Positions 3,107 through 57,600 are shown, numbered from the stretch's first letter. The stretch: DNA of 64,000 nt from Candidatus Daviesbacteria bacterium (GCA_041690695.1 JBEPVZ010000001.1:14943-78942); one strand, 5' to 3'. Numbers and translations: made by a program. The notes: a model not told the origin generated them from the letters alone.

Positions 3107-3836
3107 CTGTAAGCTCTCTTCTTAAAAGTTTTAGATATTTTATGAATTTTGGAGAAAACCTAGTTTGTGTATTCCTAGTAGAAAAGTTTATATCAAGAAT
3201 AGTTTTTACCTGAGTAGGCCTCCTTGAAAGGATAACCACCTTGTTGGATAAGTAGATTGCTTCAGTAAGGGAATGTGTGACCAAAATGGTTGTCATTTTT
3301 CCTTGATCGTGTGTAGTCAGCAGTTTGTCTTGGAGAAACTCTCTGTTTGGTTCATCAATCGAAGAAAAAGGTTCGTCTAACAACAATAGTTCCGGATCAA
3401 GAATTAAACTTTGGAGAATACAAACCAACTTCATGGTACCTCCGGAGAGATGTTGGATAGGCATATTTGATTTACCGGCTAAATTCACCATTTCTAATAG
3501 GTCAAGAGCTCGTTGGTAATCTTTATTCGATACTATTTGTTGTGGTAGCATGATGTTTTCAATGGTATTTAACCATGGAAAGAGGGTCGGTGTTTGAAAA
3601 CATAGGCCAATCTTACTTTTTTCGCGTAGTGATTTAGCTGGTTTGCGATTTATGGTTATTTGGCCAGAATCGAGAGGAAGGAGGGTTGAGATTAGTCTTA
3701 GCAAAGTCGTTTTACCACAACCGTACGGCCCAACTATCGACACAAAATCTCCCTTGTTAATATCTAAATTAAGATTATTGATAACTTTGACGTTTTGATA
3801 GCTTTTCGAGACTCCCCGCAAGGAGACGAAGCTCAT
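3099..3836 (-). CDS. ABC transporter ATP-binding protein (SsuB/TauB-like)
   Basis: Walker A GPYGCGKTT, LSGG signature, Walker B LLLLDEP, H-loop. Confidence 0.8.
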   Translation of the reverse strand: MSFVSLRGVSKSYQNVKVINNLNLDINKGDFVSIVGPYGCGKTTLLRLISTLLPLDSGQITINRKPAKSLREKSKIGLCFQTPTLFPWLNTIENIMLPQQIVSNKDYQRALDLLEMVNLAGKSNMPIQHLSGGTMKLVCILQSLILDPELLLLDEPFSSIDEPNREFLQDKLLTTHDQGKMTTILVTHSLTEAIYLSNKVVILSRRPTQVKTILDINFSTRNTQTRFSPKFIKYLKLLRRELTDA

Positions 3837-4837
3837 TCGTTAACAAATTGATTGGTGAAAGCTTGATCTAAAGTTATTGATCCTTTTAGAAGGTCCTGGG
3901 AACTTAAGATCTCTTGCATACCCTGCCAGATTTTGGTATCTGATAAACCAATCTTCTGATCAGTAAAGATTAAGCTTTGGCTTAGATTAAGAGAATCTAA
4001 TTCATGTTTTCTATTGAGTGTGTTGTTTCTAGCTAAGGTTGAGTTGATGGCTCCTTCTTTATCAATAAATGCCATATTCCATCCTTCAAGCGTGGCAGTA
4101 ACAAACTTTTTTACAATATCGGGATGATTTTTGACCATATCTTCAGTTGTAAAGATAGTATCTCCGTAAAAATTTATGCCATAGTCACGCGGCTTTATTA
4201 TATTGACATCAATACCTTGGTCAGCCAGTAAAAGAGGTTCGTTAACTTCATAACCTACTTCCGCATCTATGTTACCCGTGATAAATTGAGTAAGATCAAA
4301 CGTTTTTGGAACGGCGTTTATACGATTATTATCTATGCCCTGTTTTGATAACAAGGCTCTATATATTATTTCATCGTCGTCAGCAGCAACAACACCAATC
4401 TTTTTCCCAACAAGATCAATAGGTTTTAGGATATTTAAAGATTTTTTTGAGTAGATAGCGATCGGAGATTTTTGGTAGATGACTGCAACAGCAACAACGG
4501 GCACTCCTTTATCACGAGCTAATAAGATTTGATTACCACTCGTTATACCAAAACTATCTGCTCCAGATACCACCATTGCTATAGAGGAAATATTTGGGCC
4601 ACCTGGATCAATAGAAACATTTAATCCTTGATTGGCATATAAACCCTTATCCTGGGCGACATAAATTCCGGCAAATTGACTTTGATTTAACCACTTTAAC
4701 CTAATAGAGATATTAATTGCCGCATGCACGGAAGGACTGGTATTCGATATTTTGGGTTGATTTAGTCGAAAAAGATAATAAACAAATAGTCCTAAAACTA
4801 GGAGTATTATAATAATTGTGAGTCGTTTAAATGACAT
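3833..4837 (-). CDS. ABC substrate-binding protein, NMT1/THI5-like (SsuA/ThiY-like)
   Basis: N-terminal signal anchor; periplasmic-binding-protein-like composition; first gene of a three-gene operon with 4-8 nt overlaps. Confidence 0.55.
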   Translation of the reverse strand: MSFKRLTIIIILLVLGLFVYYLFRLNQPKISNTSPSVHAAINISIRLKWLNQSQFAGIYVAQDKGLYANQGLNVSIDPGGPNISSIAMVVSGADSFGITSGNQILLARDKGVPVVAVAVIYQKSPIAIYSKKSLNILKPIDLVGKKIGVVAADDDEIIYRALLSKQGIDNNRINAVPKTFDLTQFITGNIDAEVGYEVNEPLLLADQGIDVNIIKPRDYGINFYGDTIFTTEDMVKNHPDIVKKFVTATLEGWNMAFIDKEGAINSTLARNNTLNRKHELDSLNLSQSLIFTDQKIGLSDTKIWQGMQEILSSQDLLKGSITLDQAFTNQFVNE

Positions 4838-4840
4838 TTT

Positions 4841-4864
4841 TTAATACTCATTAATGAGTATTAA
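4841..4864. promoter_or_regulatory. Perfect palindrome TTAATACTCAT-TA-ATGAGTATTAA (11-nt arms), ending ~6 nt upstream of the substrate-binding-protein start codon; putative operator or translational control hairpin
   Basis: Read directly in sequence; flanked by T4/A4, which extends the symmetry. Confidence 0.4.
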
Positions 4865-4924
4865 AAGGATTGTATGCCTACTATTCTAGTGTGTCAAGCT
4901 ACGACAAAAATATCTAGGGATTAA

Positions 4925-5371
4925 TTAAACAGCTTTCAAAGCATCAAACCCTTTAAGAATATATTTATCAACATTCGGTGAGAAATCATAGTCACCAATT
5001 TGATCTTCCGAGATCCATTGAACTTTGCTAGTATCTTCTAAGGCTTTTGCTTCCCCAGATTTCCAGTGACATAAAAAAATCAAGGCGATGACATGCTGTC
5101 CTGTCGATCTGAGAAAAGTATTATTAGATAGAAGAGTTACATTGTCTTGAATGTCTACTCCCGTTTCCTCCTTAACTTCGTCGGATAGGGTCTTTTCTAT
5201 AATATTCCAAACATTACCATCAGTTCGCTCAACTTTACCGCCGGGTATAGTCCATTTTCCAGGATCATGTGTTTCTTCCATGCTCCGTTGTGAAGCTAAT
5301 ATTTTTCCGTTCTTTTCTACCACCGCATTTATAAGTACTAAATGAGTTTTATCAGTAGCCAGGTCGCTCAT
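4925..5371 (-). CDS. NUDIX hydrolase
   Basis: Nudix box GGKVERTDGNVWNIIEKTLSDEVKEETGV. Confidence 0.7.
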   Translation of the reverse strand: MSDLATDKTHLVLINAVVEKNGKILASQRSMEETHDPGKWTIPGGKVERTDGNVWNIIEKTLSDEVKEETGVDIQDNVTLLSNNTFLRSTGQHVIALIFLCHWKSGEAKALEDTSKVQWISEDQIGDYDFSPNVDKYILKGFDALKAV

Positions 5372-10316: not shown

Positions 10317-10389
10317 ATATTTTGCTTTTTACTGAACAGAAATCGCCATTTTTCTGATATAATTGGCTTCAGTATTCTTCATGTAGGCA

Positions 10390-10448
10390 CGCCTTATTTC
10401 ACGAATCCAGGCTAAGAGGTGTTCGAACAAAAGTGCATGGAGGGCACC
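10390..10448. repeat. Copy A of a ~58-nt intergenic repeat (CGCCTTATTTCACGAATCC...GTTCGAACAAAAGTGCATGGAGGGCAC)
   Basis: ~86% identical to copy B at 11497..11553. Contains the small hairpin GTGC-ATGGAGG-GCAC. Lies just downstream of a minus-strand gene. Confidence 0.5.
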
Positions 10449-10567
10449 AAAGGAGACACCTAGTTAACCTACTAGCCATATTTGCATTTTGAAGTACGAG
10501 TATTTGATATTCCTGTAAATCCAAGATTGTTTATTTCTGGTGATCCGACATAATGATATTTACAAAG

Positions 10568-11425
10568 TTATTCGGGAGTAGGGTTTAATTCAACCTTATT
10601 TATTAGATCCCTCCCATGATCTTTGAGATATACCATACCTCTTGTAAGGCGATCTACAGGTACAGTAGGGAGTAGCAATTCAGGAATGGAATGCCGAATA
10701 AATGGATCATCATATTCTGGATAAGATATACCCTTATATAGCAAATCTCTTCCGCCAATGGCTTTATCACGTAATTTTCCCCAACCAACAGCAAAAAGAT
10801 TAAGAACGTTGAAAGCGGCGTTAGCCCCAGCATAAAGAGCTGCGACTGTAGCCGTACCATGTAGTACTTCTACAGGGCTCGAGCTATGGAGTAAGGTCTC
10901 CATTTCTACAAGGGGCAAAAGTAGTAAGTCTTTTGTCAAAAATGTCCAATAGCTAGAAAGAAATGCAATATTATATTCTCCTCCATTAAGAAGCTTTTCT
11001 CTTTTTAGAACATCTTTTATCCCTTTGTTAACTTCTTGTTGAAATGCGTCAACATAAGCTTTATCAAAGTTTCCTCCTTCGTTTGAACGTGATACATGTT
11101 GAGCTAATTCCTGATCGTTAACTGCTACATACCATGTATCACTTTCTTTTCGTGTTTGTACGATATTGTTTCTATTCCAAACATCCATTCGAGGCATTTG
11201 TAAAAATTTGGCTATGCGGACTGTCCCAATTTGATCATAGTCAATTGCTCTATCTTGAGGTTTTTGAATAATCGCAATATCACCCCGTATATCAGCAGTC
11301 TGCATAAATCCATCGGCAACAGGATGATTTACTTCCATAATATCTCGTGCAACTCCTCGATATTCATCAAGTGACACTACCTTATGATGTTTGAATTGGT
11401 ATCCTTGTGGTGCATGTTCTGCCAT
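10568..11425 (-). CDS. Hypothetical protein (285 aa), bracketed by repeat copies A and B; locally higher GC
   Basis: Tracked ORF with no recognisable domain; composition differs from neighbouring genes. Confidence 0.4.
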   Translation of the reverse strand: MAEHAPQGYQFKHHKVVSLDEYRGVARDIMEVNHPVADGFMQTADIRGDIAIIQKPQDRAIDYDQIGTVRIAKFLQMPRMDVWNRNNIVQTRKESDTWYVAVNDQELAQHVSRSNEGGNFDKAYVDAFQQEVNKGIKDVLKREKLLNGGEYNIAFLSSYWTFLTKDLLLLPLVEMETLLHSSSPVEVLHGTATVAALYAGANAAFNVLNLFAVGWGKLRDKAIGGRDLLYKGISYPEYDDPFIRHSIPELLLPTVPVDRLTRGMVYLKDHGRDLINKVELNPTPE

Positions 11426-11496
11426 GATCGGAATATATCATATTTTTGAAGCTGATATCAATTATAGGTCAGAATGGCTATAATTTAAGCAAAGCT

Positions 11497-11553
11497 CGCC
11501 TTATCTCATGAATCCAAACGAGGAAGTGTTCGACAAAAGTGCATGGAGGGCAC
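11497..11553. repeat. Copy B of the ~58-nt intergenic repeat
   Basis: Aligned by eye to copy A with 8 differences including a 1-nt indel. Lies between the stop of the 11564..13684 gene and the start of the 10568..11425 gene. Confidence 0.5.
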
Positions 11554-11563
11554 TAATAAAACT

Positions 11564-13684
11564 TTATTTTAACTTTCGTCTCTTTTCGCGAATAAATAAG
11601 GCTGCCAAAGTAATAATCACTAAAAATAAAACACCCATAATAATTATTACTTTCGGTGACGATAAAGGTGATTGTGGTTTAACCTGAATATTTAAATCAA
11701 ATTCTTTAACATCACCTGATAAATTAAGAGACTGCTCGCCTTGAAAACCATTGTAAGCTACTAAAACTTTATGATCTCCTGACTCGACATTATGAAAGGT
11801 TGCAAAACCATCTTTATCAGTTTTAGTAACTTGGGGAGTCGAATGGATCGTCACCGTTGCTCCTTCAACTGGTTTTTTATTAGTATCAAAAACCTTTATT
11901 TTGACATTATATCCACCTGATGCACGCGAAGGAGAAACTTGACCAGGCGGTTGATCACTCTCACTCGGCTTGGGTGAATCCAACTCAGAGCTTGGGAGAT
12001 TAGATTGATTAATCCTTCCTAACGACCCGGTCGAAGTTGAAACTTCATTTGACCATGGACCCGTGGCACAGCCATTTCCACCTCGAACTCTAAAATAATA
12101 TGTCATATTGGGAGAAAGAGAGCCAACTAAGAAAGTCATTTGGGAGCGCGAGTTTATCCCCATATCCGAAACCCCATAAAGATAACTTCCAGATTTCGTG
12201 CCATACTCTAAAACGTATTTATTAACTGGGTTATCGGCGGCAGTAAATGAAAGTAGAATATGATTACTGTCATTTGAAATAGGTTTAGATAACTCTGGGG
12301 CTTGCGAACCAGGAGATTGATCTGTACACACCCCTGGTGAGTTTGAAGACGAATTTTGATTTGAGTTTGAGGTCGAAGTTGAAGGGGTCGTTCTGGTAAA
12401 ATTGACACTGTACTCATAAATTCCATAATGCAGCCAGGTCGAGGCTATAAAATACATAGTCTGGCCATTATTAACCAGAAACGAGTCAGTCACATAGGGT
12501 CCATAATAATCCCAACTTGGGTTACTAATCGTAAATGGCATGGTTAAAGTTAGGGGAGCACTCCATGGTCCTGTCAAACTATCCGCTAAATAATAATGAA
12601 CAACACTCGGTAAACAACCATCACTGCCTGTCATCAACATATATTTTTGCAAATATGGATTATAGATAACCGAAAACTCAGCAATCGTTAGATATGTGCA
12701 TTCACTTTGCCCGGAAGGGTAGGGAGCTGTGGCATAATCTTTATCAAAAGTGAAATTTGGATCATTCGGCGGAATTAGCCAAACTACTTGACTATCAATC
12801 GTCGATTCATTAACTACAGGATCTGACCAAACATTATTTCCTTCGTAATAACTGAAGCCTAGTGTCCCGCTGGCGTTCAGAAATTCACTAATTGATGTTC
12901 GGGCTAACTTAACACCACCAAAACGATTAGCCGGGCTACCAATCATGTAGAGATAACCACCAGTATTATCGACGACAAAAGCACTTTGGGCAAAAGCATA
13001 TTGCAAGGTGTTGGAAAAGGAGCGTTGCCAGACATAGACCGAACCTTTGTAAGCTTCGAACAACCCACTTGAGGAATTATATTTGGCAATTTTGGTCAAA
13101 TTTGACCAATGTGTGAATCCACCCACATTTCCGCCCGACATAAAACCGGCAAACATGTAATCTGTGCCTGTTTGGGTCAAGGTAAAAGCTCCATTCGGTA
13201 AATCCGCCGGACCATCGTTTAGTGCCTTAGATGCCAGTGCTCCACCAAATTGCGGGTTTAACATATTATCAACATGAATTCCTTGATCGAGAGTTGTGGT
13301 CGTCGGAGCACTTAAAACCTTAAAAGCATCGGTAGTTAAACCAACCGTATCGCCTAACACAAAATACCAGCGGTTATTATATAGGGTTGGCGCACCGAGA
13401 TCGGCACCTTGAACAAAACCTAAAGAGTTGCTATCAAACTGTGGAATTGACGAAGGGTCTGGCCCACCACCATGAATACTTAAACTCCCAGTCCCAATAA
13501 TTTTCCCAATCATAGTCGCTTGGGAGGTGGTGATGGTCGTACTATCTGCATAAACTGGATGGGCGATCCAGCCACCAATCTTGAGAGGGAGGACTAAGAC
13601 TAAAATAAATAAAAAGGCAGTAACACATTTTGGCATATGTTTTTTATAATATTTATAATTTGAGATGGTAGTAGTATAGGACAA
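11564..13684 (-). CDS. Large secreted, membrane-anchored surface protein P1. Order: signal peptide, beta-rich extracellular domain, S/T linker, FN3-like domain, CarboxypepD_reg-like domain, C-terminal TM + KRRK anchor
   Basis: The track ORF starts at a TTG; the in-frame ATG at 13636 gives a typical signal peptide (MPKCVTAFLFILVLVLPLKIGGWIAHPVYA). The C-terminal ~280 aa are homologous to the C-terminus of 33087..36221. Confidence 0.6.
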   Translation of the reverse strand: MSYTTTISNYKYYKKHMPKCVTAFLFILVLVLPLKIGGWIAHPVYADSTTITTSQATMIGKIIGTGSLSIHGGGPDPSSIPQFDSNSLGFVQGADLGAPTLYNNRWYFVLGDTVGLTTDAFKVLSAPTTTTLDQGIHVDNMLNPQFGGALASKALNDGPADLPNGAFTLTQTGTDYMFAGFMSGGNVGGFTHWSNLTKIAKYNSSSGLFEAYKGSVYVWQRSFSNTLQYAFAQSAFVVDNTGGYLYMIGSPANRFGGVKLARTSISEFLNASGTLGFSYYEGNNVWSDPVVNESTIDSQVVWLIPPNDPNFTFDKDYATAPYPSGQSECTYLTIAEFSVIYNPYLQKYMLMTGSDGCLPSVVHYYLADSLTGPWSAPLTLTMPFTISNPSWDYYGPYVTDSFLVNNGQTMYFIASTWLHYGIYEYSVNFTRTTPSTSTSNSNQNSSSNSPGVCTDQSPGSQAPELSKPISNDSNHILLSFTAADNPVNKYVLEYGTKSGSYLYGVSDMGINSRSQMTFLVGSLSPNMTYYFRVRGGNGCATGPWSNEVSTSTGSLGRINQSNLPSSELDSPKPSESDQPPGQVSPSRASGGYNVKIKVFDTNKKPVEGATVTIHSTPQVTKTDKDGFATFHNVESGDHKVLVAYNGFQGEQSLNLSGDVKEFDLNIQVKPQSPLSSPKVIIIMGVLFLVIITLAALFIREKRRKLK

Positions 13685-31118: not shown

Positions 31119-32024
31119 ATGCAAAGAATTGTTCCTAATTTTTGGTTTGACCATAACGCTGAGGAAGCTGTTGATTTTTATCTTTCAGTCTTTAAGGACA
31201 GCAAAATCAAGGCAACGTTCCATTATCCAAAAACTGAAGAAGAAGGATTAGCTGACTTTCAAACAGATTTAGCTGGAAAAGTGTTAACTATCGATTTTGA
31301 AATAAGCGACTATAGTTTTACGGCGATTAATGCCGATACGACATTTAAGCCGACTCCATCAATATCATTTTTTTACACCTGTGATACAAAACAAGAAATT
31401 GATGAATTATGGGAAAAACTATCAAATGATGGGAAAACATTGATGGATCTTAATAAATATCCATTTAGTGAATATTATGGTTGGGTACAAGATAAATTTG
31501 GCTATACTTGGCAGCTTATTTTAAACAATGCTCAAGGTGATAAAAGACCAAAAATTGTACCTTCACTTATGTTTACGAAAGATAGAGACGGACAAGCCCA
31601 GGATGCAATGAAGTTTTATACCTCGGTCTTTAAAGACAGTGATATAAGTAAAAACCTTAATTATTATCCCTCAGATATACCTGATAGAGAAGGTAAGATT
31701 TCTTATGCTGATTTTCGACTGTTTGATCAATGGTTTGCGGTTATGGATGGCGGAAAAGATCATGATTTTAGTTTCAGTCCGGCAATTTCACTGATGGTAC
31801 GATGCAAAGATCAAGAAGAGATCGATTATTACTGGGAAAAACTATCAGCAAATCCGGATTTTGAACAATGTGGTTGGCTTGAAGACAAATATAGTGTTAA
31901 TTGGCAAATTGCACCTGAGAATATAGATGAATTGATAAGGCTGCCTGGGGCATACAAAAGTATGATGAGTATGAAAAAGCTTGATATCGCAGGACTACAA
32001 GAAGCTGATAAAAATGACGAATAA
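31119..32024 (+). CDS. Tandem-duplicated PhnB-like (3-demethylubiquinone-9 3-methyltransferase domain, VOC/glyoxalase superfamily) protein
   Basis: Two internal repeats begin IVPNFWFDHNAEEAVDFYLSVFKDS and IVPSLMFTKDRDGQAQDAMKFYTSVFKDS. Confidence 0.5.
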   Translation: MQRIVPNFWFDHNAEEAVDFYLSVFKDSKIKATFHYPKTEEEGLADFQTDLAGKVLTIDFEISDYSFTAINADTTFKPTPSISFFYTCDTKQEIDELWEKLSNDGKTLMDLNKYPFSEYYGWVQDKFGYTWQLILNNAQGDKRPKIVPSLMFTKDRDGQAQDAMKFYTSVFKDSDISKNLNYYPSDIPDREGKISYADFRLFDQWFAVMDGGKDHDFSFSPAISLMVRCKDQEEIDYYWEKLSANPDFEQCGWLEDKYSVNWQIAPENIDELIRLPGAYKSMMSMKKLDIAGLQEADKNDE

Positions 32025-32314: not shown

Positions 32315-33007
32315 ATGCCAGAGATGGATCTTTTAAATAGCGGCTTAGAAAAAACTAATTGGTGGGTGGTGACCGGTGGTCCATCATCGGGTAAAAGTAC
32401 ATTATTAACTTATATGGCATTCAAGGGGCATCGAGTAATTCCAGAAGCAGCCCGAGTTTTAATCGACCTTAAGCTGAGCCGTGGCCAAACTTTAGCCCAA
32501 ATTCGCCAAGACGAAAGTCTTTTTCAAGATCAGGTTTTTGATATGAAAGCTGGATTGGAAAGTCAGTTATCTCCCAATCAAGAAGCTTTACTCGAGAGGG
32601 GTTCACATGGGGATACTCTTGCTTATAAGCTACTCGGAATGATCTGGCCGGACAAAGAACACACTCCACCAGCTGACTACTCACGAAGATCAGGAATTCT
32701 CGATAGAATAGAATCTACCGATTTTCTAGGTAGACCCGAAACAACCTATATTCTTAAAAGACAGTATGCTGGGGTTTTTATCCTTAACCGTTTACCTTTT
32801 GTGAAGGATTATGCTCGGACTGAAGACGATCTTCAAGCCGAGAGGATTGACAAGCTGCTGCATTATAGCTATCGTCTACTTGGTTATCAGCCAATTGATG
32901 TACCAGTAGCGCCGGTTGATCAACGTGCCAACTTTATACGAAGACATATTCAGATATTGAAGACTGAGAGCGTAAAAGATTGCGAGCAATTGCTCAAACG
33001 ATGGTAA
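32315..33007 (+). CDS. P-loop ATPase/kinase (AAA_28/NadR-like)
   Basis: Walker A VTGGPSSGKSTL near the N-terminus. Confidence 0.45.
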   Translation: MPEMDLLNSGLEKTNWWVVTGGPSSGKSTLLTYMAFKGHRVIPEAARVLIDLKLSRGQTLAQIRQDESLFQDQVFDMKAGLESQLSPNQEALLERGSHGDTLAYKLLGMIWPDKEHTPPADYSRRSGILDRIESTDFLGRPETTYILKRQYAGVFILNRLPFVKDYARTEDDLQAERIDKLLHYSYRLLGYQPIDVPVAPVDQRANFIRRHIQILKTESVKDCEQLLKRW

Positions 33008-33008
33008 G

Positions 33009-33116
33009 ATGAGAAAAATAATAACTACTACATTTATTACTCTTGACGGTGTTATGCAGGCTCCAGACGGGCCGGAGGAAGATACTTCAGATGGATTTGC
33101 TTATGGGGGTTGGCAG
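33009..33116 (+). repeat. Truncated duplicate of the first 36 codons of the RibD_C/DHFR-like gene at 36437 (108 nt, ~92% identity); direct repeat partner is 36437..36544
   Basis: Aligned by eye: ATGAGAAAAATAATAACTACTACATTTATTACTCTTGACGGTGTTATGCAGG... versus ATGAGGAAAATAATAACTACTACATTCATTACCCTTGACGGTGTTATGCAAG..., 9 mismatches, then abrupt divergence. The copy encodes MRKIITTTFITLDGVMQAPDGPEEDTSDGFAYGGWQ and then a short out-of-context tail. Confidence 0.7.
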
Positions 33117-36100
33117 TTGACTATTCACTGTTTTTTTCGTTCTTATTAAAACAACTGATAATACTATTATAATTAACGCCATCACACCTGTGACTCCTAT
33201 TACGAGAGGAGAAAATGAATTTGTAGGTTTTACTACAACATTGACACTGAACTCTTTTTCGCTACCCGTCAGATTAAGTGATTCTTCTCCTTTGAAATTC
33301 CCATAGGCAATGAGTAGTTGATGATTTCCTGACTCGACATTATGAAAAGTAGCTACACCATTCTTGTCAGTCGTAGTCGTTTGTGGTGTTGAGTGAAGGG
33401 TTACCATTGCCCCAGCAACAGGCTGTTTATTTGTATCAGTAACTTTTATATTTACATCGTGTACCAGTACTTGATTACTACTATTACCTGTAGAACTACT
33501 TGGAGACATTTGATCTGAAGCGCTTTGAATTTTTAAATCCCATCCAATATTTAAGTTCGCGGATGAGCTAAGAGAGGGATACTCATCTTGATTGTCTTTA
33601 ATAATTTGCGCTATTTCTTCTGGAATAGTGATCTGGAGATCGTTTGTTTGTATTACGAACGAAGCAATAGACCAGAGACTATCTCCTGGCTGGACTTTAT
33701 ACGACGTGCTATTGCCCAATGGAATATTTGCAACTGGTTGCACCGTTGTTGATACAAAAGGTGTTGAACTACCAAACAGATTATTTCCGTTTGTTGTCGC
33801 CGATATTTCATTTGACCAAGTGCCCGGAGCACAACCATTAGCAGCTTGAATTCTAAAATAATACGTAGTATTCGCAGCAAGGCTTGAGACTAATGCAGTT
33901 CTAGCGCCACTTCCTCCAATATTTTGGGAACCGTAGGGATAATTTCCAGAAGTTGTTCCATACTGAAGAATATAATGATCCAGAGGTCCATCTGCACTGG
34001 CAAAGTATAAGAGTATATTCTGACTATCTTGAGCGTTGGCGGCATATAGCCAAGGCGCTTTTGCACCAGGTGATGGGTTTCCACAAGATGGTGTGGTCGT
34101 ATCGGAAGATGAAGAATTTGAGGATGAAGCTGAAGTAGGCGTTGGGGTTGCAGTTGGAGCTATTGCCACAAAAATATCTATAGCACCATTATTAAACTGA
34201 CTAGCTGATGCTCCACTTGCAACAAGTGGTTTCATTAACTTCACGTACGCTATTTGATTTCCTGTATCAACGTAGGTAAGATAATCAGTATTTTTTGTTA
34301 ATGATGTTGATCCAATTTTCACTGTAGGATCTACGAGTGAGGTGTAATTAGCAATTTTATAGATATTGATCCAGCGCTCTGTCACATTACCCGTGATCGT
34401 AGGAGTAAAGAGTACTTCGTTACCTGAGGCGGTCATTTGATAGGCTGCTTCATCGTAACTAAAGCTACTCATGGATCCTGTTGTCATAATCCCTGATGTA
34501 TCGGGATTTAAATAGTCTGCTGCTATTGAAATAGCGTCACCGGAAGTCAGATTTTTATCTAGTACTTGTAAGTAATAAAATGTTTTTGTTGTTAAAGCAG
34601 AGAAATTAGCAATTGTTGCATATTCATATACTTTTAGGCGAGAAGTATTTTGATCGTAATCCACGACGTTACTTGAGCCACCATTACTCGTCAGTTTCGT
34701 TTTTATTACGGTCTCAACACCTGTAGATATTCCACTGGCATTTTTAGGGGTGATATAGACATAATCAGGGTTTGTACTTGTCAGTGTCGGCCAGCCAACT
34801 GTATTGGAGCCACCTACTGTACCATATCCTCCATTGGAAAAATCCCACACGTTCTCTCCTACTTCTTGCAATCCACCGATAAGGGTCACTTCAAGAGAGT
34901 CGGCAGCCCCAAGTGTAATTGCTGACCCACTCGGATTTGTTGCGTCGACTCTATCAGCTATAAATCCAGGATTTCCTGGGTAAATTGCTGTCTTAACAAG
35001 ATAATTAAATCCATTGGCGTCTGTTCCGGAGGTAGGAACCGTTCCACTATAATAACGTCTGAAGCCCGTTCCTGTCGGTGTTTGTTCGGCTAGAGTGTAG
35101 GCCGAAGACTCTGTTCCAAGATACGTTCCCGACCTGTTGGTTAACCAATGAATAAAACCATCGGGAATAGTTGTTGCTAAGCTAGTTTGGTTAATACTTG
35201 TGGTATTGCTTGCGATCTCATACCAGGGAGAGATTATTGCACCCCCATATGTAGGAATAAGTCCCACTTGCCATCCGTCCCCAGAACTATTTGTCCAGTG
35301 AATATCTGTTTCTGCCTGGTTGTTGCTAAAGCCTCCGGATATACCGCTTTGGGTTTGGGATGTTACGACCAATCCTGGTGCTGCCGTTGGGGTAGGCGTA
35401 GGAGTGGGTGTGCTAGTAGGGGCGGCGGTACTTGTAGGGGTCGGAGTACTCACAACATTGTCTCCGACTGAAAAGTTATCGATAACCCAACCCGTTGAAC
35501 CTGCAAAACCTTTAATCCCGGCTTTTCCTGCTGCAAGAGGTGAGGTGTCAGTTACTTGTCCCGTCCAGCTAGCTGGTTCTGCTGTCCCGTCCTGCCATAC
35601 TTTAATAGAAAGGATGGCATTACTTCCTGATGTTGCTACATTAAACCGTATCCAATAAAACGTGTTATTTGCTTCCGAGAGTGCCACTGTAGTGGAAAAT
35701 GGTTTCGTGCTGACTCCAGCTTGTGTTTTTAATATATCAACTTCACCCGTTGCACCATTTGCTCCAAAGCCTGCAGCATAGGTATTATTTATATCTGTAA
35801 ACCGTAACATGATACGCCCACCATCTGTAACAATTTGATTACTCTCATAGCGTACAAGACTATCAGCAGTAGAGATCGAGGTACTTCCCAATGTTAATAG
35901 CTGGCTTGCCCCTGAGTTGATAACGCGTCCTTCGTTAGCATTGACAGAAACATTGGCAGCCGTACCACTTTGTAGCGTCCAGGCGTTCCCATCTGTAGCT
36001 GTTCCCCAACCATTTGCAACATTTGATCGTGTAAATGTATCTTGAAGAAGAACGGAGCCCGTTACGTCTGGATTTGTTGCGTATGCTTTTTCAACAAGCA

Positions 36101-36221
36101 CAAGCGAAAAGAAAAAGAGTGTACTCATGAACATTAGAAGGAGAAAAACTGTGCTAAAAATAACTTTTTTGTAAAAGATAAAAGTGGACTTAATTCGTCC
36201 ATTTTTTAGGGGGATGACCAT
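33087..36221 (-). CDS. Large secreted, membrane-anchored surface protein P2 (1044 aa). Order: N-terminal TM/signal, jelly-roll/LamG-like domain, PT linker, large beta-rich region, FN3-like domain, LysM-like segment, CarboxypepD_reg-like domain, TM anchor
   Basis: C-terminal ~340 aa are homologous to P1 (for example YYFRIQAANGCAPGTWSNE vs YYFRVRGGNGCATGPWSNE, and VATFHNVESGNHQLLIAYGNFKGEESLNL vs FATFHNVESGDHKVLVAYNGFQGEQSLNL). YKVQPGDSLWSIAS is LysM-like. The last 10 codons and the stop are encoded by the reverse complement of the 33009..33116 repeat. Confidence 0.6.
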   Translation of the reverse strand: MVIPLKNGRIKSTFIFYKKVIFSTVFLLLMFMSTLFFFSLVLVEKAYATNPDVTGSVLLQDTFTRSNVANGWGTATDGNAWTLQSGTAANVSVNANEGRVINSGASQLLTLGSTSISTADSLVRYESNQIVTDGGRIMLRFTDINNTYAAGFGANGATGEVDILKTQAGVSTKPFSTTVALSEANNTFYWIRFNVATSGSNAILSIKVWQDGTAEPASWTGQVTDTSPLAAGKAGIKGFAGSTGWVIDNFSVGDNVVSTPTPTSTAAPTSTPTPTPTPTAAPGLVVTSQTQSGISGGFSNNQAETDIHWTNSSGDGWQVGLIPTYGGAIISPWYEIASNTTSINQTSLATTIPDGFIHWLTNRSGTYLGTESSAYTLAEQTPTGTGFRRYYSGTVPTSGTDANGFNYLVKTAIYPGNPGFIADRVDATNPSGSAITLGAADSLEVTLIGGLQEVGENVWDFSNGGYGTVGGSNTVGWPTLTSTNPDYVYITPKNASGISTGVETVIKTKLTSNGGSSNVVDYDQNTSRLKVYEYATIANFSALTTKTFYYLQVLDKNLTSGDAISIAADYLNPDTSGIMTTGSMSSFSYDEAAYQMTASGNEVLFTPTITGNVTERWINIYKIANYTSLVDPTVKIGSTSLTKNTDYLTYVDTGNQIAYVKLMKPLVASGASASQFNNGAIDIFVAIAPTATPTPTSASSSNSSSSDTTTPSCGNPSPGAKAPWLYAANAQDSQNILLYFASADGPLDHYILQYGTTSGNYPYGSQNIGGSGARTALVSSLAANTTYYFRIQAANGCAPGTWSNEISATTNGNNLFGSSTPFVSTTVQPVANIPLGNSTSYKVQPGDSLWSIASFVIQTNDLQITIPEEIAQIIKDNQDEYPSLSSSANLNIGWDLKIQSASDQMSPSSSTGNSSNQVLVHDVNIKVTDTNKQPVAGAMVTLHSTPQTTTTDKNGVATFHNVESGNHQLLIAYGNFKGEESLNLTGSEKEFSVNVVVKPTNSFSPLVIGVTGVMALIIIVLSVVLIRTKKTVNSQLPTPISKSI

Positions 36222-36436
36222 GTAATACTGTGTATATGATAGTAGGGTTTTTCTAGTAGAAGGTCAAGTAAAAATTATGAATTATCCCTTTTTGAAACTC
36301 TAAAAGACCAAGTGGGGGACATTATACACGATGCTTCTAAAGTTTAATGTTTAACTTATTTTTACGCCCTAGCAGTATTTTTAGCCTTAAAATCTAATGA
36401 TTTTCAATAAACTAACGGTGTAGTAGAATTGTTTAG

Positions 36437-37048
36437 ATGAGGAAAATAATAACTACTACATTCATTACCCTTGACGGTGTTATGCAAGCGCCCGGTGGGC
36501 CGGAGGAAGATACTTCAGATGGATTTGCTTATGGAGGTTGGCAGCTTGGCTGGGACGAATCTGACCCAATAGCGGAGAAAATTCTGGAAGGTTTTATGAC
36601 CGCTCCTTTTGAGCTGCTTTTAGGCAGACGGACTTATGATATTTTTGCCTCTTACTGGCCAAATCATGAAGAGATAGAGCAGGTCGCGAAACCATTCAAT
36701 AGCACCAAAAAATATGTTGTCTCACATGAATCTTTTAAACCGTCCTGGAATAATTCAACGCTTATTACCGGAGATGTGGTCACAGAGATAAAAAAGCTTA
36801 AAGAGTTAGACGGTCCAGACCTAGTAGTCTGGGGGAGTGGCAACCTTATCCAAACACTACTTAAGCACAATCTCATCGATCGCATGCAGATATTGACCTA
36901 CCCTATTACGATTGGCACTGGCAAAAAATTATTCGCCGAAGGCACACTTCCTGAGCGCTTTAAACCAGTAGATTCAAAAATCACCTCGACAGGTGTAGTG
37001 TTTGCTACCTACGAACCAGCAGAGCCACTCAAACCAAGGTCGTTATAA
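36437..37048 (+). CDS. Dihydrofolate reductase-like protein (RibD C-terminal domain family)
   Basis: N-terminus MRKIITTTFITLDGVMQAPGGPEEDTSDGFAYGGW is typical of RibD_C/YwjB-like reductases. Confidence 0.65.
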   Translation: MRKIITTTFITLDGVMQAPGGPEEDTSDGFAYGGWQLGWDESDPIAEKILEGFMTAPFELLLGRRTYDIFASYWPNHEEIEQVAKPFNSTKKYVVSHESFKPSWNNSTLITGDVVTEIKKLKELDGPDLVVWGSGNLIQTLLKHNLIDRMQILTYPITIGTGKKLFAEGTLPERFKPVDSKITSTGVVFATYEPAEPLKPRSL

Positions 37049-54005: not shown

Positions 54006-54677
54006 GTGGATAAACTCAAATTAATTACTAAAACATCTCAATTTAAAATAGGTATGCTTGCAGCTTTGGCTGTGTTGTTAGTAGGTAGCTTAATAACTAA
54101 TATCTGGTTTTGGACAGAACTAAATAAAACAAAGCAAACTTTAAGCTCAAAAAGCATTCAATCGTCTCTAAATCAGCTGATGGAAGAGCATGTTGTACTA
54201 CTAGTAGAGAGTATTAAAACTACTAATAATCCAGCTGAATATCAAGCCAATACTAAACAGCTTGAGATGAATTCAACTGCCATTTCGGAATGGATTGGTC
54301 AAGTTTATGGTGAACCCGCCCAATATTCATTTCAGACTCTCTGGAGAGCCCAAATTAATGCCTATTTACAATATACCGTCGAAACTCAAGCTAAATCCAA
54401 AGACGCCGCGAAAGAGCTCCCAATTATGACCGCCTTCCCGGCGAATCTGACAAATTGGTTTGTTAAAATTAATCCCAAAACTCATCACGATAATCTCGAG
54501 CCATTACTAAGCTCATATGTCGGAATTACTAAGACGATTATTGACTCAACAGCGGTTTCTGATTTCACTAATATTTCAAGGCGCCAGCAAGATTTATCAA
54601 ATACCATGACTCAGATTGCCAATCTAATTTACCAAGATGCTTCGATCGCGTATCCCGATAAGCTAAAAACCAAATGA
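54006..54677 (+). CDS. Hypothetical membrane-anchored protein; stop overlaps the giant-gene start (ATGA)
   Basis: N-terminal TM, 223 aa; translationally coupled to the downstream giant ORF. Confidence 0.35.
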   Translation: MDKLKLITKTSQFKIGMLAALAVLLVGSLITNIWFWTELNKTKQTLSSKSIQSSLNQLMEEHVVLLVESIKTTNNPAEYQANTKQLEMNSTAISEWIGQVYGEPAQYSFQTLWRAQINAYLQYTVETQAKSKDAAKELPIMTAFPANLTNWFVKINPKTHHDNLEPLLSSYVGITKTIIDSTAVSDFTNISRRQQDLSNTMTQIANLIYQDASIAYPDKLKTK

Positions 54678-57600
54678 AAAAATTATTAAAGAAACCAAAC
54701 TTAAATTATAGTCGTCGAACTTATCTGGCTATTTTGGTCACAGTTATCTTTTTCAGTTTAGCTGCCACGATTTGGGCAGCCATCTCCTCTAATATTGGTA
54801 ACTCTTCAACCACCGCCGCCACCCAAGCCTCAACTGAGAAACATATGGTTCGAACCTCAGAGGGAACGATGCACTCATTTGTTCAAGTTGGAACTCAAAC
54901 CTCGACTTGTGGAGGAGTTGCTAAATCAGGGTTACTTTGGTTTGATTCGACAGATAATGGCGCAACTTGGGTCTGCCAATCCCAACTGTCTTCTGATACG
55001 ACCAATTTAATGTATGCCTCAGCCACAGTTGACTCCTCAGATAACGTTTACGTCGTTTACTCAGTGGCAGTGAACGGCGCCAGTGCTTCAAATGATGTCT
55101 TTTATCAAAAGCTGACTAAGGGCAGTGGAGCAACTTGGACCGTCGGAGCAGCTCAAACAGTCTTGGATGCTAGTGCCTCGACAGGTTATAGCTATGCAGT
55201 TATGGAGGTTGAAGGCACCACTAGGCTTTGGCTCGCAGCTCGCTATTTTGATGGTTCAAATTACCAAGTCACAGTTTATGATTCAAACAACCTAAACGAC
55301 GCACCAACTTGGACTGTTTCGCAAGCGAGTTTAGACACCGCCGGCAACGGTACAACGACCCATTTCCCAGCTATGGTTAGATTTGGTAGTAATATCGGTA
55401 TCCTCTATAATGCTCAACTGCCAACAGCAGTTATGCGCTGGCGGATTCGCAATGATTCTGACGGGTTAACCAGTTGGTCAGCCGAAAATGTGGTATCTGC
55501 CAATTTACCCACTACCCCAACTTTCAGTGCCATTTCTGATAGTGCAGGTAACGTCTATTTTGCTCAAAATAATACCACCAATGTTTTGTTTAATTATTGG
55601 AATGGCTCGACTTGGTCAGCCACGACGGTTGTCTCAGCCACCGCCGCTAGTAATACCTTTGTGTCCTTATCAACCGATGGCACCAATGTTTGGATCTTTT
55701 ATGGAGATACCAATGGCCTCTCGCCAACTTTATCCGGTTCAAGAAAGCTGGTTTATAAAAAGGGCATATTGCCTTATACCGCCACCGAGTTTGATACTAA
55801 TCCAACTAATGCTGTAGCTTACCAAGATACCTTTGATAAATATTGGAGTTTTGTCTCGAGCGCCTATACCAACGATACAGTTGATGCCGGGGATATTGAC
55901 GCCACCAATACCGTCTCAAGTGGAGCCGGTAATGATGTTCAAATGACAACCGCGATTGGTGATATCGCTTATTTCGGAAAAACTGCTAAGTTTGATGCAA
56001 TTTCCTGGGCAATGACCACCAACGGAATCGGAGGAGTAATTGCCTGGGAGTATTGGAATGGTAGTAGTTGGACAGCACTTAGTTTTACAACTTCATCAGC
56101 CCCAAACTTCACGGCCAGTGGCTATGGCGCATTTACCGCCCCAGCAGATTGGGCCACCACCGCTATTAATGGGGAAGGTAGTAGTTTTTTCTATATTCGT
56201 GCTCGAACTACCACCGCCTTTACAACTACCCCGGTCGGCTTCCAAATGACCTCAATTCCATTAATTAATTGGAGTAATTTTCTACCCGCCCCAGTTTCAA
56301 ATACTATTTACGGTCAATGGACTGAAAATGCTAGTTCACCAGTTAAAGTTCGAACCGGCTCGATATCAGTCACAGCCAATACCCCTAACGCCGCTTCAAC
56401 AGCCAATTTAACTGGAGTTATCGGCTATTCCGCAACCAATGTAGCAACTCAACCCTCGAACTTGAGACACATGGTCAAAACATCTGATGGAACGATCCAT
56501 GCTTTTATCCAATCAAGTACCGTTTCACCTTGTGGAGCCAGTACCAGCTCAAATAATGGGATGGGCGTGAACTGGATCTACTCAACTGATTCAGGCTCAA
56601 CTTGGGCTTGCGGAGGGTTACTTTCAAACGACACAACTAATTTGATGTACGCCTCAGCGACGGTTGATTCGTCCGATAATATTTATGTCGTTTATTCCAG
56701 TGCCACGGCTGGGGCTAATGCAAACTTCAAGATTTATTACCGAAAGTTGAAGAAAGGTTCGGGCTCAACCTGGACTGTAGGTTCGCAACAAACGGCTGTT
56801 GATGCTACGTCATCCCAAGGCTTTAATTACGCAACCATCGAGGTTGAAGGAACCACCCGGTTATGGCTGGCAGCTCGCTATTTTGACGGTACAAATTATC
56901 AAGTTTCAGTTTACTATTCTAACGACCAATCAGCCGCTCCAACTTGGACCGTTTCACAAGCCACCTTAAATACCGGTAGTACTGCTTCAATTGATAATAT
57001 TCCCGAGATTGTCAGATTCGGATCGAGTATTGGAGTCGTTTATACAGCTTCAACTGTCAACATAACTCGTTGGAGATATCGCAACGATGGCGATAGCTTA
57101 ACCAGTTGGGTACAGGAATCGAACGTCAGTACTGAAAACTTAGATTCAGCCGCCTTTACCGTGGTTTCAGATGGCAGTAACGTTTACTATGCTTCCAACC
57201 AATTAACAAACATATTCTTCACTTACTGGAACGGTACCGCCTGGCAGCCCACAAATACCATCTCAGCCACCGCCATCGCCGATAACTTAGTTAGTTTATC
57301 AACCGATGGCACCAATGTTTGGATCTTTTACACCGATACCACAAACTTATCCGCCACCTTAACCGGTTCAAGAAAGATGGTTTATAAAAAAGGGGTGGCA
57401 CCGTTTAATGTCGCCAACTTTGACGCCACCGCTACCGCCGTCAACTCTTATGAAGACGTCTTTGATAAATATTGGAGCTTTGTCTCGAGTGCTTATACCA
57501 ATGATACTGTAGATGCAGGTGACCTTGATGCCACTAACACTGCTTCGAGTGGGGCTGGTAATGATTTGCAAATGGTCACCGGAGCTGGGGACATTGCCTA

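What the first reader, a model, noticed from the sequence alone, without database searches (positions are those of the whole stretch)
33009..36544. 3.4-kb surface-protein cassette bracketed by a 108-bp direct duplication of the 5' end of the adjacent RibD_C/DHFR-like gene
The first 108 nt of the RibD_C gene at 36437 recur, ~92% identical, at 33009..33116, immediately after the stop of the upstream ATPase gene. The 1044-aa surface protein gene P2 and its promoter region lie exactly between the two copies. P2's last 10 codons and its stop are read from the reverse complement of the truncated copy, so the junction created the present C-terminus. This R-S-R arrangement looks like Campbell-type integration of a circular element carrying P2 plus a RibD_C 5' fragment, or a duplication-insertion event. 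It is not ordinary vertical gene order. It suggests the large adhesin-like genes are exchanged as cassettes.
Basis: seen in the sequence. Interest (0 to 1): 0.65.

Follow-up and report, generated by a model that had tools for sequence, protein, structure and literature searches.

The report
Leftover gene stub beside surface-protein gene
The first 108 bases of a reductase-like (RibD_C) gene occur twice around a large surface-protein gene because a second, once-working copy of that gene was cut off and fused to the surface-protein gene's tail: an ordinary rearrangement scar, with no sign of a mobile gene cassette.

Summary
Bases 33009-33116 and 36437-36544 match at 99 of 108 positions with no gaps, and there is no third copy in the window. 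The left copy starts 1 nt after the ATPase stop. The surface-protein gene P2 ends inside it on the opposite strand (9 codons plus the stop, not 10).

The two copies are not a fresh duplication. Eight of the nine differences are synonymous (dS 0.44, dN 0.012), so both were parts of working genes for most of their divergence. The only amino-acid change, G20D, is in the stub, at a residue that is Gly in all 29 closest homologs.

P2's tail after its membrane anchor is 18 aa against a family median of 8. P2 therefore lost its own stop and at most a few codons.

I found no integrase, transposase, phage link or terminal inverted repeats, and P2's codon composition is typical of the window. No close relative exists in any database searched, so the "empty site" test could not be run.

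Best reading: the stub is a relic of a second RibD_C gene, joined to P2 by one illegitimate recombination event. A deletion between neighbouring paralogs is most likely; another metagenome contig shows such a paralog pair. Campbell-type integration of a circular fragment is not excluded. Cassette exchange of adhesin genes has no support. Low interest.

The parts
32315..33007 (+). AAA_28-family ATPase gene (230 aa). Its TAA stop is 1 nt before the ATG of the RibD_C stub.
   Evidence: ORF list and Pfam PF13521, E 4e-19. Sequence read.
33009..33116 (+). Copy A: the first 36 codons of a second RibD_C gene, now a stub. The open frame runs on to 33149 (46 aa). It carries G20D at a residue that is Gly in all 29 closest homologs.
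   Evidence: Alignment, translation, homolog N-termini, dN/dS.
33069..33106 (.). The 38-nt stretch that is identical in both copies (repeat columns 61-98; partner at 36497-36534). It is long enough to break k=31 assemblies and could serve as a homologous crossover site. Its length is not statistically unusual.
   Evidence: alignment. Logan contig ends. Simulation P = 0.22.
33087..33116 (-). P2 stop codon plus its last 9 codons (LPTPISKSI), read from the antisense strand of copy A. This is a C-terminal extension created by the junction.
   Evidence: Sequence and P2 translation. Tail-length comparison: 18 aa against a family median of 8.
33117..33119 (.). Junction triplet TTG. Either the Leu37 codon of the truncated gene, or P2 sequence, or a 3-nt microhomology shared by both partners. 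The illegitimate join lies at 33116/33117 to 33119/33120.
   Evidence: End of nucleotide homology. tblastn extends the match to 37 aa.
33087..36221 (-). P2: a 1044-aa surface protein with an N-terminal signal/TM segment, Pro/Thr-rich linkers, fn3, LysM and CarboxypepD_reg domains, and a C-terminal TM anchor. It is the only minus-strand gene between 31119 and 41377.
   Evidence: The C-terminal module has 1161 relatives. It shares 75-77% nt identity with the 706-aa gene at 11564-13684.
36222..36436 (.). Divergent intergenic region between P2 and the intact RibD_C gene. It contains weak promoter-like matches on both strands.
   Evidence: The consensus matches are no more frequent than in shuffled sequence.
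36437..37048 (+). Intact RibD_C / DHFR-family gene (203 aa). Its first 108 nt (36437-36544) are copy B.
   Evidence: Pfam PF01872 covering profile positions 1-196 of 197. 7995 homologs, best 82% aa identity. GC3 0.412, z = +2.3.

Best explanation
Copy A is the 5' remnant of a second RibD_C gene that once worked. That gene sat immediately downstream of the ATPase, probably in the same operon. One illegitimate (non-homologous or 3-nt microhomology) join fused its codon 36/37 tail-to-tail to the extreme 3' end of the convergent surface-protein gene P2.

The mechanism I commit to is a deletion. The ancestor carried two diverged RibD_C paralogs in direct orientation a few kb apart, in the order ATPase, RibD_C-A, P2 (opposite strand), RibD_C-B. 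A deletion removed the roughly 500-nt 3' part of the redundant copy A, the intergenic spacer with any terminator, and P2's stop plus at most a few codons.

P2 translation now runs 9 codons into the antisense strand of the stub before reaching a stop. RibD_C-B stays intact with its own upstream region. The stub has since picked up a damaging G20D change.

Shown: the repeat; the junction; the signature of past purifying selection; the derived change in the stub; the over-long P2 tail; and the absence of mobility genes. Inferred: that copy A was once full length here, and that the event was a deletion rather than an insertion.
For: (1) Eight of the nine differences are at third codon positions and synonymous: S = 24, N = 84, Sd = 8, Nd = 1, dS = 0.44, dN = 0.012. 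Both lineages were therefore coding and under selection for most of their divergence.
(2) The only non-synonymous change, G20D, is in copy A, at a residue that is Gly in all 29 closest homologs. This fits relaxed selection after truncation.
(3) Homology starts at the ATG and the upstream sequences are unrelated. That is expected for two genes in different contexts, not for an arbitrary duplicated DNA segment.
(4) Copy A's ATG is 1 nt after the ATPase stop, a layout typical of a real operon gene.
(5) A precedent for the pre-deletion state exists. Metagenome contig L112 carries two full-length RibD_C paralogs, 82.5% nt identical, 3.6 kb apart and in direct orientation, with homology confined to the ORF. 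Eleven of 89 RibD_C loci hold two family members.
(6) P2's tail after the TM anchor is 18 aa. The median is 8 (interquartile range 6-11), and only 4% of 139 relatives reach 18 or more. The paralog in the same window ends REKRRKLK*. The breakpoint therefore sits within a few codons of P2's native stop. Selection would permit exactly this for a deletion ending in a short intergenic spacer or a dispensable tail.
(7) There are no integrase, transposase or phage-family hits in the segment or within about 9 kb. P2's GC3 is 0.304, equal to the window mean of 0.304.
(8) The Logan contigs L001 and L090 break at exactly the columns predicted for a two-copy repeat.
Against: No ancestor or sister genome is available, so the state with two full-length copies is inferred and not observed. 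The deletion model does not explain how two RibD_C copies came to flank P2. A repeat-insert-repeat layout with one truncated and one complete copy is also what a single crossover with a circular molecule produces (PMC3240628). None of the 89 other loci shows a comparable stub, so no recurring pattern supports the model. The selection argument rests on only 9 differences in 108 nt.
Confidence: 0.4

Rival explanations
1. Campbell-type integration. A 3428-bp circular DNA came from a related lineage in which P2 and RibD_C are divergent neighbours. It carried P2, the 215-nt promoter region and the first 108 nt of RibD_C. It recombined once with the resident ATPase-RibD_C gene inside the conserved 5' block, for example in the 38-nt identical core. 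The result is a truncated left copy and a rebuilt, intact right copy.
For: The geometry fits exactly: direct repeats flank the insert, the left copy is truncated, and the right copy is complete with new upstream DNA. Single crossovers of circular molecules gave 109-950 bp duplications in 56 of 60 E. coli recombinants, whereas true homology-facilitated illegitimate recombination (HFIR) gives deletions (PMC3240628). The synonymous divergence fits a donor from a related lineage. The first 110 nt of RibD_C are unusually conserved at the DNA level even between lineages, at 77-82%, which offers a recombination target. The k=31 graph of SRR27874556 cannot tell the integrated form from an empty site plus a circle.
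Against: There is no integrase or replication gene in or near the segment and no viral relatives. P2's GC3 is exactly that of the host. The model needs a prior illegitimate circularisation whose breakpoint happened to fall within a few codons of P2's stop, although a fragment end could lie anywhere downstream. The homology is only 108 nt at 92% identity. None of 89 other RibD_C loci shows a stub or an adjacent P2-like gene.
Confidence: 0.22
2. One-step acquisition of foreign linear DNA by homology-facilitated illegitimate recombination (HFIR). Donor DNA carrying P2 and RibD_C-B was anchored by homology in or downstream of RibD_C. Its far end, the P2 3' end, joined illegitimately at column 108 of the resident gene.
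For: The arrangement has one homologous side and one illegitimate junction. The copies are diverged as expected for donor and recipient. HFIR has been proposed for relics of displaced genes in Vibrio T6SS and Rhs loci (PMC5361080).
Against: HFIR normally deletes recipient DNA and does not duplicate the anchor (PMC3240628). The donor's own columns 1-108 should pair with the recipient's, which would place the illegitimate joint upstream of the ATG and not inside the homology. HFIR is orders of magnitude rarer than homologous recombination. Nothing in the composition suggests that P2 is foreign.
Confidence: 0.1
3. Assembly artefact. The contig is chimeric, or the two sides of the 38-nt shared core were joined in the wrong phase. 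The true structures would then be an intact ATPase-RibD_C locus plus a separate molecule or strain carrying P2.
For: The source is a metagenome-assembled contig. The repeat has a 38-nt identical core that k=31 assemblies cannot resolve. Only one sample contains this lineage.
Against: The A-specific base at column 99 lies only 17 nt (18 positions) before the junction at 33116/33117. Any assembly k-mer of about 21 or more that spans the junction also carries that base, so the stub-P2 join must exist in reads (inference). Even with mis-phasing, a truncated RibD_C 5' end would still be fused to P2's 3' end. Columns 60 and 99 are 39 nt apart and would be phased by any ordinary read. The Logan contig ends fit a true two-copy repeat.
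Confidence: 0.07
4. A recent in-place duplication of the 108-nt segment, for example a long target-site duplication or replication slippage when P2 was inserted, followed by neutral decay of the stub.
For: Direct repeats flank an inserted-looking gene on the opposite strand.
Against: Eight of the nine differences are synonymous. Neutral decay of one copy predicts about 36% synonymous differences (P about 0.002). A test against site proportions (24 of 108 synonymous sites) gives P about 4e-5 (and my calculation). The left edge of the repeat coincides with the start codon. There is no transposase and there are no terminal inverted repeats.
Confidence: 0.03

Closest known systems
Gene remnants left by deletion of one of two neighbouring paralogs (pseudogene stubs in reduced genomes)
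   Same: A truncated 5' fragment sits next to an intact paralog. The divergence pattern shows past purifying selection. A derived damaging substitution is present in the stub. The junction lies in dispensable sequence of the neighbouring gene.
   Different: The stub is fused tail-to-tail with a convergent gene and now supplies that gene's last 9 codons and its stop. The ancestral two-copy state is inferred only by analogy with L112.
Campbell-type single-crossover integration of circular DNA carrying a gene fragment (PMC3240628; textbook insertion-duplication mutagenesis)
   Same: Direct duplication of the homologous segment (109-950 bp in the experiments) flanking the inserted DNA. One copy is truncated and one is complete when the circle carries a 5' fragment.
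   Different: No plasmid, replicon or integrase is present. The copies are 8% diverged. No circle or empty site has been observed.
Prophages that integrate inside a protein-coding gene and bring a replacement gene end, such as phage 21 and e14 in E. coli icd (recalled from my own knowledge; not retrieved)
   Same: The target gene stays intact because the inserted DNA supplies a diverged copy of the gene end, with mostly synonymous differences. The displaced original end remains as a stub at the other junction.
   Different: Those elements carry an integrase and replace the 3' end. Here the 5' end is duplicated, the segment is a single surface-protein gene with no recombinase, and no presence/absence polymorphism is known.
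Homology-facilitated illegitimate recombination and displaced-gene relics in T6SS effector-immunity and Rhs arrays (PMC5361080)
   Same: One conserved anchor plus one illegitimate junction. Remnants of the displaced gene are retained.
   Different: HFIR typically deletes rather than duplicates anchor sequence. There is no array of successive relics here.

Membership tests
Integrative element inserted in a protein-coding gene (phage 21 / e14-icd type) | An integrase or recombinase gene within or next to the element | tested here: not met
   The only ORF in 33117-36436 is P2. Pfam and PHROGs show no recombinase in P2 or in neighbours within about 9 kb.
Integrative element inserted in a protein-coding gene (phage 21 / e14-icd type) | Direct repeats (att core) at both ends, with the target gene restored by element-borne sequence | tested here: met
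   108-nt direct repeats with a 38-nt identical core. RibD_C-B is full length (Pfam positions 1-196 of 197).
Integrative element inserted in a protein-coding gene (phage 21 / e14-icd type) | Presence/absence polymorphism (an empty site) or a circular form | not testable with these tools
   No relative of the ATPase above 42% identity exists. The k=31 contigs cannot phase the repeat.
Campbell-type single crossover with circular DNA | Duplication of the shared segment flanking the insert, with one truncated and one complete gene copy | tested here: met
Campbell-type single crossover with circular DNA | Evidence that the inserted DNA came from elsewhere (foreign composition, plasmid or phage genes, the same segment at other sites) | tested here: not met
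   P2 GC3 is 0.304, equal to the window mean. No viral or PHROG hits. No similar arrangement in 89 RibD_C loci.
Transposon or insertion sequence with target-site duplication | A transposase, terminal inverted repeats and a short (2-14 bp) identical target duplication | tested here: not met
   No transposase. No terminal inverted repeats at 33117 and 36436. The repeat is 108 nt and 8% diverged.
Homology-facilitated illegitimate recombination product | One homologous and one illegitimate junction, normally with deletion (not duplication) of recipient DNA next to the anchor | tested here: inconclusive
   An illegitimate junction is present at 33116-33119, with at most a 3-nt possible microhomology. 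The anchor sequence is duplicated, however, which is atypical (PMC3240628).
Pseudogene relic of a deleted paralog | A truncated copy whose divergence from the intact copy shows past purifying selection, plus later degenerative change | tested here: met
   dS 0.44, dN 0.012. G20D at a family-invariant Gly occurs only in the stub. The rest of the gene is absent from the window (tblastn).
Pseudogene relic of a deleted paralog | Relatives that retain both full-length copies at this locus | not testable with these tools
   The lineage is a singleton in the databases. Only an analogous pair in the unrelated contig L112 is available.

The most novel reading that the evidence does not exclude
The 3428-bp unit (P2, its promoter region and a RibD_C 5' end) is a small cassette without an integrase. 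It enters and leaves genomes by recombination within the ultra-conserved first ~110 nt of RibD_C genes (38-nt identical core here). It rebuilds the target gene much as phage 21 rebuilds icd, and so moves a surface-protein gene between related bacteria. The k=31 graph of SRR27874556 is compatible with the integrated form coexisting with an empty site plus a circle.
Probability: 0.08. Interest if true: 0.6.

Novelty: new member of a known kind. Interest (0 to 1): 0.22.

Why it matters
The scar is a clean, datable mark of genome rearrangement in a lineage that has no sequenced relatives. It shows that this small genome once carried two RibD_C genes, or received one from a related lineage. It also shows that a rearrangement rewrote the C-terminus of a large surface protein without destroying it.

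Practically, the 46-aa ORF at 33009-33149 should be annotated as a pseudogene fragment, and the last 9 residues of P2 as junction-derived. It matters more widely only if read-level data reveal an excising circle, which would be a new recombinase-free way of moving surface-protein genes. Nothing found here points that way.

Tried and rejected
1. Comparison with related genomes for an ATPase-RibD_C "empty site". An exact look-up of the ATPase found only a 1.1-kb Logan contig from the same lineage. The best relatives reach 41-42% aa identity in the GTDB representative genomes and in 5.8 billion proteins. None of the 80 distant ATPase loci has a RibD_C neighbour.
2. Gene context of the three closest RibD_C homologs (81-82% aa): no shared synteny.
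3. Exact look-ups of RibD_C, P2 and the NCBI-called RibD_C variant found nothing.
4. A possible shared junction in the closest P2 C-terminal relative. P0234 and P0269 end in ISKI* and P2 ends in ISKSI*. The P0234 contig L089 has an ordinary terminator-like downstream region and no RibD_C sequence. I treat the shared 8 nt (ATAAGCAA) as chance (my rough estimate P about 0.01).
5. A link to phages or mobile elements: no viral contig relatives and no PHROG hits.
6. Compositional evidence that P2 is foreign: none. RibD_C-B is the compositional outlier instead.
7. Polarising the 9 differences with outgroups. Copy B is closer to the outgroups, but outgroup synonymous sites are near saturation (dS 0.6-1.4), so I did not rely on this.
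8. The 38-nt identical core as a sign of a crossover or gene conversion: not significant (P = 0.22).
9. The promoter and terminator scans gave no more matches than shuffled sequence.
10. Rfam found only the tRNAs and no rRNA that could place the organism.


Full report
OBSERVATION

The repeat is real. Window 33009-33116 and 36437-36544 align without gaps at 99 of 108 positions (91.7%). The repeat finder extends it to 115 nt at 90%, but only 5 of the 7 extra upstream bases match. A blastn of the window against itself gives E about 1e-39 for this pair and no third copy. tblastn with the full RibD_C protein finds only residues 1-37 at the left site, so the rest of that gene is absent from the window.

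The left copy (A) begins with an ATG 1 nt after the TAA of the AAA_28 ATPase ORF (32315-33007). The right copy (B) is the start of an intact 203-aa RibD_C gene (36437-37048; Pfam PF01872 positions 1-196 of 197). Between them lie P2 (33087-36221, minus strand, 1044 aa) and a 215-nt divergent intergenic region.

P2 has a signal/TM N-terminus, Pro/Thr-rich linkers, fn3, LysM and CarboxypepD_reg domains, and a C-terminal TM anchor. It is the only minus-strand gene between 31119 and 41377.

INDEPENDENT SUPPORT FROM A SECOND ASSEMBLY

Two contigs from the Logan k=31 assembly of run SRR27874556 carry this lineage. L001 (ATPase plus copy A) ends at repeat column 90. That is the last 31-mer still containing the A-specific base at column 60. 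L090 (RibD_C 3' part, Tag, GNAT and further genes) starts at column 69. That is the first 31-mer containing the B-specific base at column 99.

These are exactly the break points a de Bruijn graph produces when both variants flank the 38-nt identical core (columns 61-98). Both versions therefore exist in that sample. This graph cannot phase the two sides. The integrated layout and an "empty site plus 3428-bp circle" are equivalent in the graph. The A-specific base at column 99 lies only 17 nt (18 positions) before the junction, so the fusion of a truncated RibD_C 5' end to P2's 3' end must exist in reads (inference).

WHAT THE TWO COPIES ARE

Of the nine differences, eight are at third codon positions and synonymous, and one is non-synonymous. 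The Nei-Gojobori estimate gives S = 24, N = 84, Sd = 8, Nd = 1, dS = 0.44 and dN = 0.012, so dN/dS is about 0.03.

If the segment had been duplicated in place and the stub had then drifted neutrally, about 36% of differences should be synonymous. Observing 8 of 9 has P about 0.002 (my calculation from the site counts). The copies therefore diverged while both were parts of working genes, and the truncation is recent relative to their split.

The one amino-acid change (G20D) is in copy A, at a residue that is Gly in all 29 closest homologs. This fits decay after truncation. Homology begins at the start codon and the upstream sequences are unrelated, as expected for two homologous genes in different contexts.

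WHAT HAPPENED TO P2

The LysM-CarboxypepD_reg-TM module of P2 has 1161 relatives. Among 139 of them, the tail after the TM anchor has a median of 8 aa (interquartile range 6-11), and only 4% reach 18 aa. P2's tail is 18 aa: 9 native (RTKKTVNSQ) plus 9 derived from the junction.

The 706-aa gene in the same window (11564-13684) shares this module at 75-77% nt identity and ends REKRRKLK*. P2 therefore lost its own stop and at most a few codons, and it kept its anchor.

IS THE SEGMENT A MOBILE CASSETTE?

Nothing says so.
- The segment holds only P2. There are no integrase, transposase or PHROG matches in P2, the ATPase, RibD_C or the neighbours within about 9 kb.
- There are no relatives in viral contigs.
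- No terminal inverted repeats flank the segment.
- P2's GC3 (0.304) equals the window mean (0.304, sd 0.046). RibD_C-B is the outlier instead (0.412, z = +2.3).
- In 89 other RibD_C loci (492 kb), I found no orphan 5' stub and no adjacent P2-like gene.

COMPARATIVE TEST

The ATPase has no relative above 42% identity in 5.8 billion proteins or in the GTDB representative genomes. RibD_C's best relatives are 82% identical and sit in unrelated contexts. Distant ATPase loci have no RibD_C neighbour. The organism is probably a Patescibacteria-like uncultured bacterium, judging only from the names on best hits. This is not established.

MECHANISM

Every viable model needs two long-diverged RibD_C homologs and one illegitimate junction at 33116-33119.

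I favour a deletion between neighbouring paralogs (confidence 0.4). The ancestral order would be ATPase, RibD_C-A, P2 on the opposite strand, then RibD_C-B. The redundant copy A lost its 3' part, the spacer was lost, and P2 lost its last few codons.
- A precedent for the starting state exists. Contig L112 carries two full-length RibD_C paralogs, 82.5% nt identical, 3.6 kb apart and in direct orientation, with homology limited to the ORF. Eleven of 89 loci hold two family members.
- A deletion also explains cheaply why the breakpoint lies right at P2's dispensable tail. Surviving deletions can end only in the short spacer or in the tail.

Campbell-type integration of a circularised 3.4-kb fragment from a related lineage fits the geometry equally well (confidence 0.22). 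In experiments, single crossovers with circular DNA gave 109-950 bp duplications, whereas true homology-facilitated illegitimate recombination (HFIR) gives deletions (PMC3240628). This model needs a fragment end to fall, by chance, within a few codons of P2's stop. It has no supporting mobility signal.

HFIR has been proposed for displaced-gene relics elsewhere (PMC5361080). It should not duplicate the anchor (confidence 0.1). Misassembly or mis-phasing is unlikely but cannot be checked without reads (0.07). An in-place duplication followed by decay is rejected by the codon-position pattern (0.03).

CONSEQUENCES (INFERRED, UNTESTED)

P2 and the ATPase operon now converge with no intergenic spacer. 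Any P2 transcript that reads past its stop would be antisense to the first 78 nt of RibD_C sequence. That would make it 92% complementary to the 5' end of the RibD_C-B mRNA, including a 38-nt perfect stretch. The 46-aa ORF at 33009-33149 is best annotated as a pseudogene fragment.

VERDICT

This is a rearrangement scar of a known kind: a gene relic at an illegitimate junction. It is neatly documented but ordinary. The suggestion that adhesin genes move as cassettes rests on this single locus and is not supported by any test I could run.

Noticed in passing
window 54662-64000 (+): A giant open reading frame of more than 3113 aa runs off the window end. It has internal repeats spaced about 1.6-3.3 kb apart at 64-70% nt identity (for example 56630-61113 against 54995-59454). 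Its GC3 of 0.415 is the highest in the window. The first 1000 aa have no significant Pfam domain.
   Followed up: partly
window 10387-10450 and 11494-11556: A 64-nt direct repeat (84% identity) lies just downstream of two minus-strand genes: the 285-aa ORF 10568-11425 and the 706-aa surface-protein gene 11564-13684. It brackets the 285-aa gene. It may be a shared 3' UTR or terminator element, or a small RNA.
   Followed up: partly
window 11564-13684 (-) compared with 33318-33881 (-): The 706-aa protein (DUF4185, fn3, CarboxypepD_reg, TM anchor) shares its C-terminal module with P2 at 75-77% nt identity. This indicates domain-level sharing between surface-protein genes within the genome.
   Followed up: partly
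window 33090-33104; L089 3562-3579: P2's junction-derived ending ISKSI* resembles the native ending ISKI* of its closest C-terminal relatives P0234 and P0269 (8 nt, ATAAGCAA, shared). L089 has no RibD_C sequence downstream, so this is probably coincidence, though it is odd.
   Followed up: yes
window 36437-37048; protein hits: RibD_C-B has unusually high GC3 for this window (0.412, z = +2.3). Its family shows 70-82% aa identity across MAGs labelled as different phyla (Methylomirabilota, Patescibacteria, Levyibacteriota, Peribacteraceae), which suggests frequent horizontal transfer. The first 36 aa are nearly invariant.
   Followed up: partly
L112 5448-12007: A metagenome contig has two units, each a Fic-like gene followed by RibD_C, 3.6 kb apart. 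These are followed by a glyoxalase-like gene and a homolog of the window's 3-dmu-9_3-mt gene (31119-32024). This hints at a recurring neighbourhood of small accessory genes.
   Followed up: partly
window 36437-36481 and 36129-36221: The public annotation appears to start RibD_C at Met16 (P0001, 188 aa) and P2 at an internal Met (P0225, 1013 aa). The family alignment supports the longer RibD_C start at 36437.
   Followed up: partly
window 4839-4866: A perfect 28-nt palindrome lies between the ORFs 3833-4837 and 4925-5371, both on the minus strand. It may be a terminator or an operator.
   Followed up: no
window 32983-32996: The palindrome GAGCAATTGCTC inside the 3' end of the ATPase gene lies about 90 nt downstream of the P2 stop on the minus strand. 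It is the only terminator-like feature available to P2 after the rearrangement, and it is weak (5 pairs).
   Followed up: no
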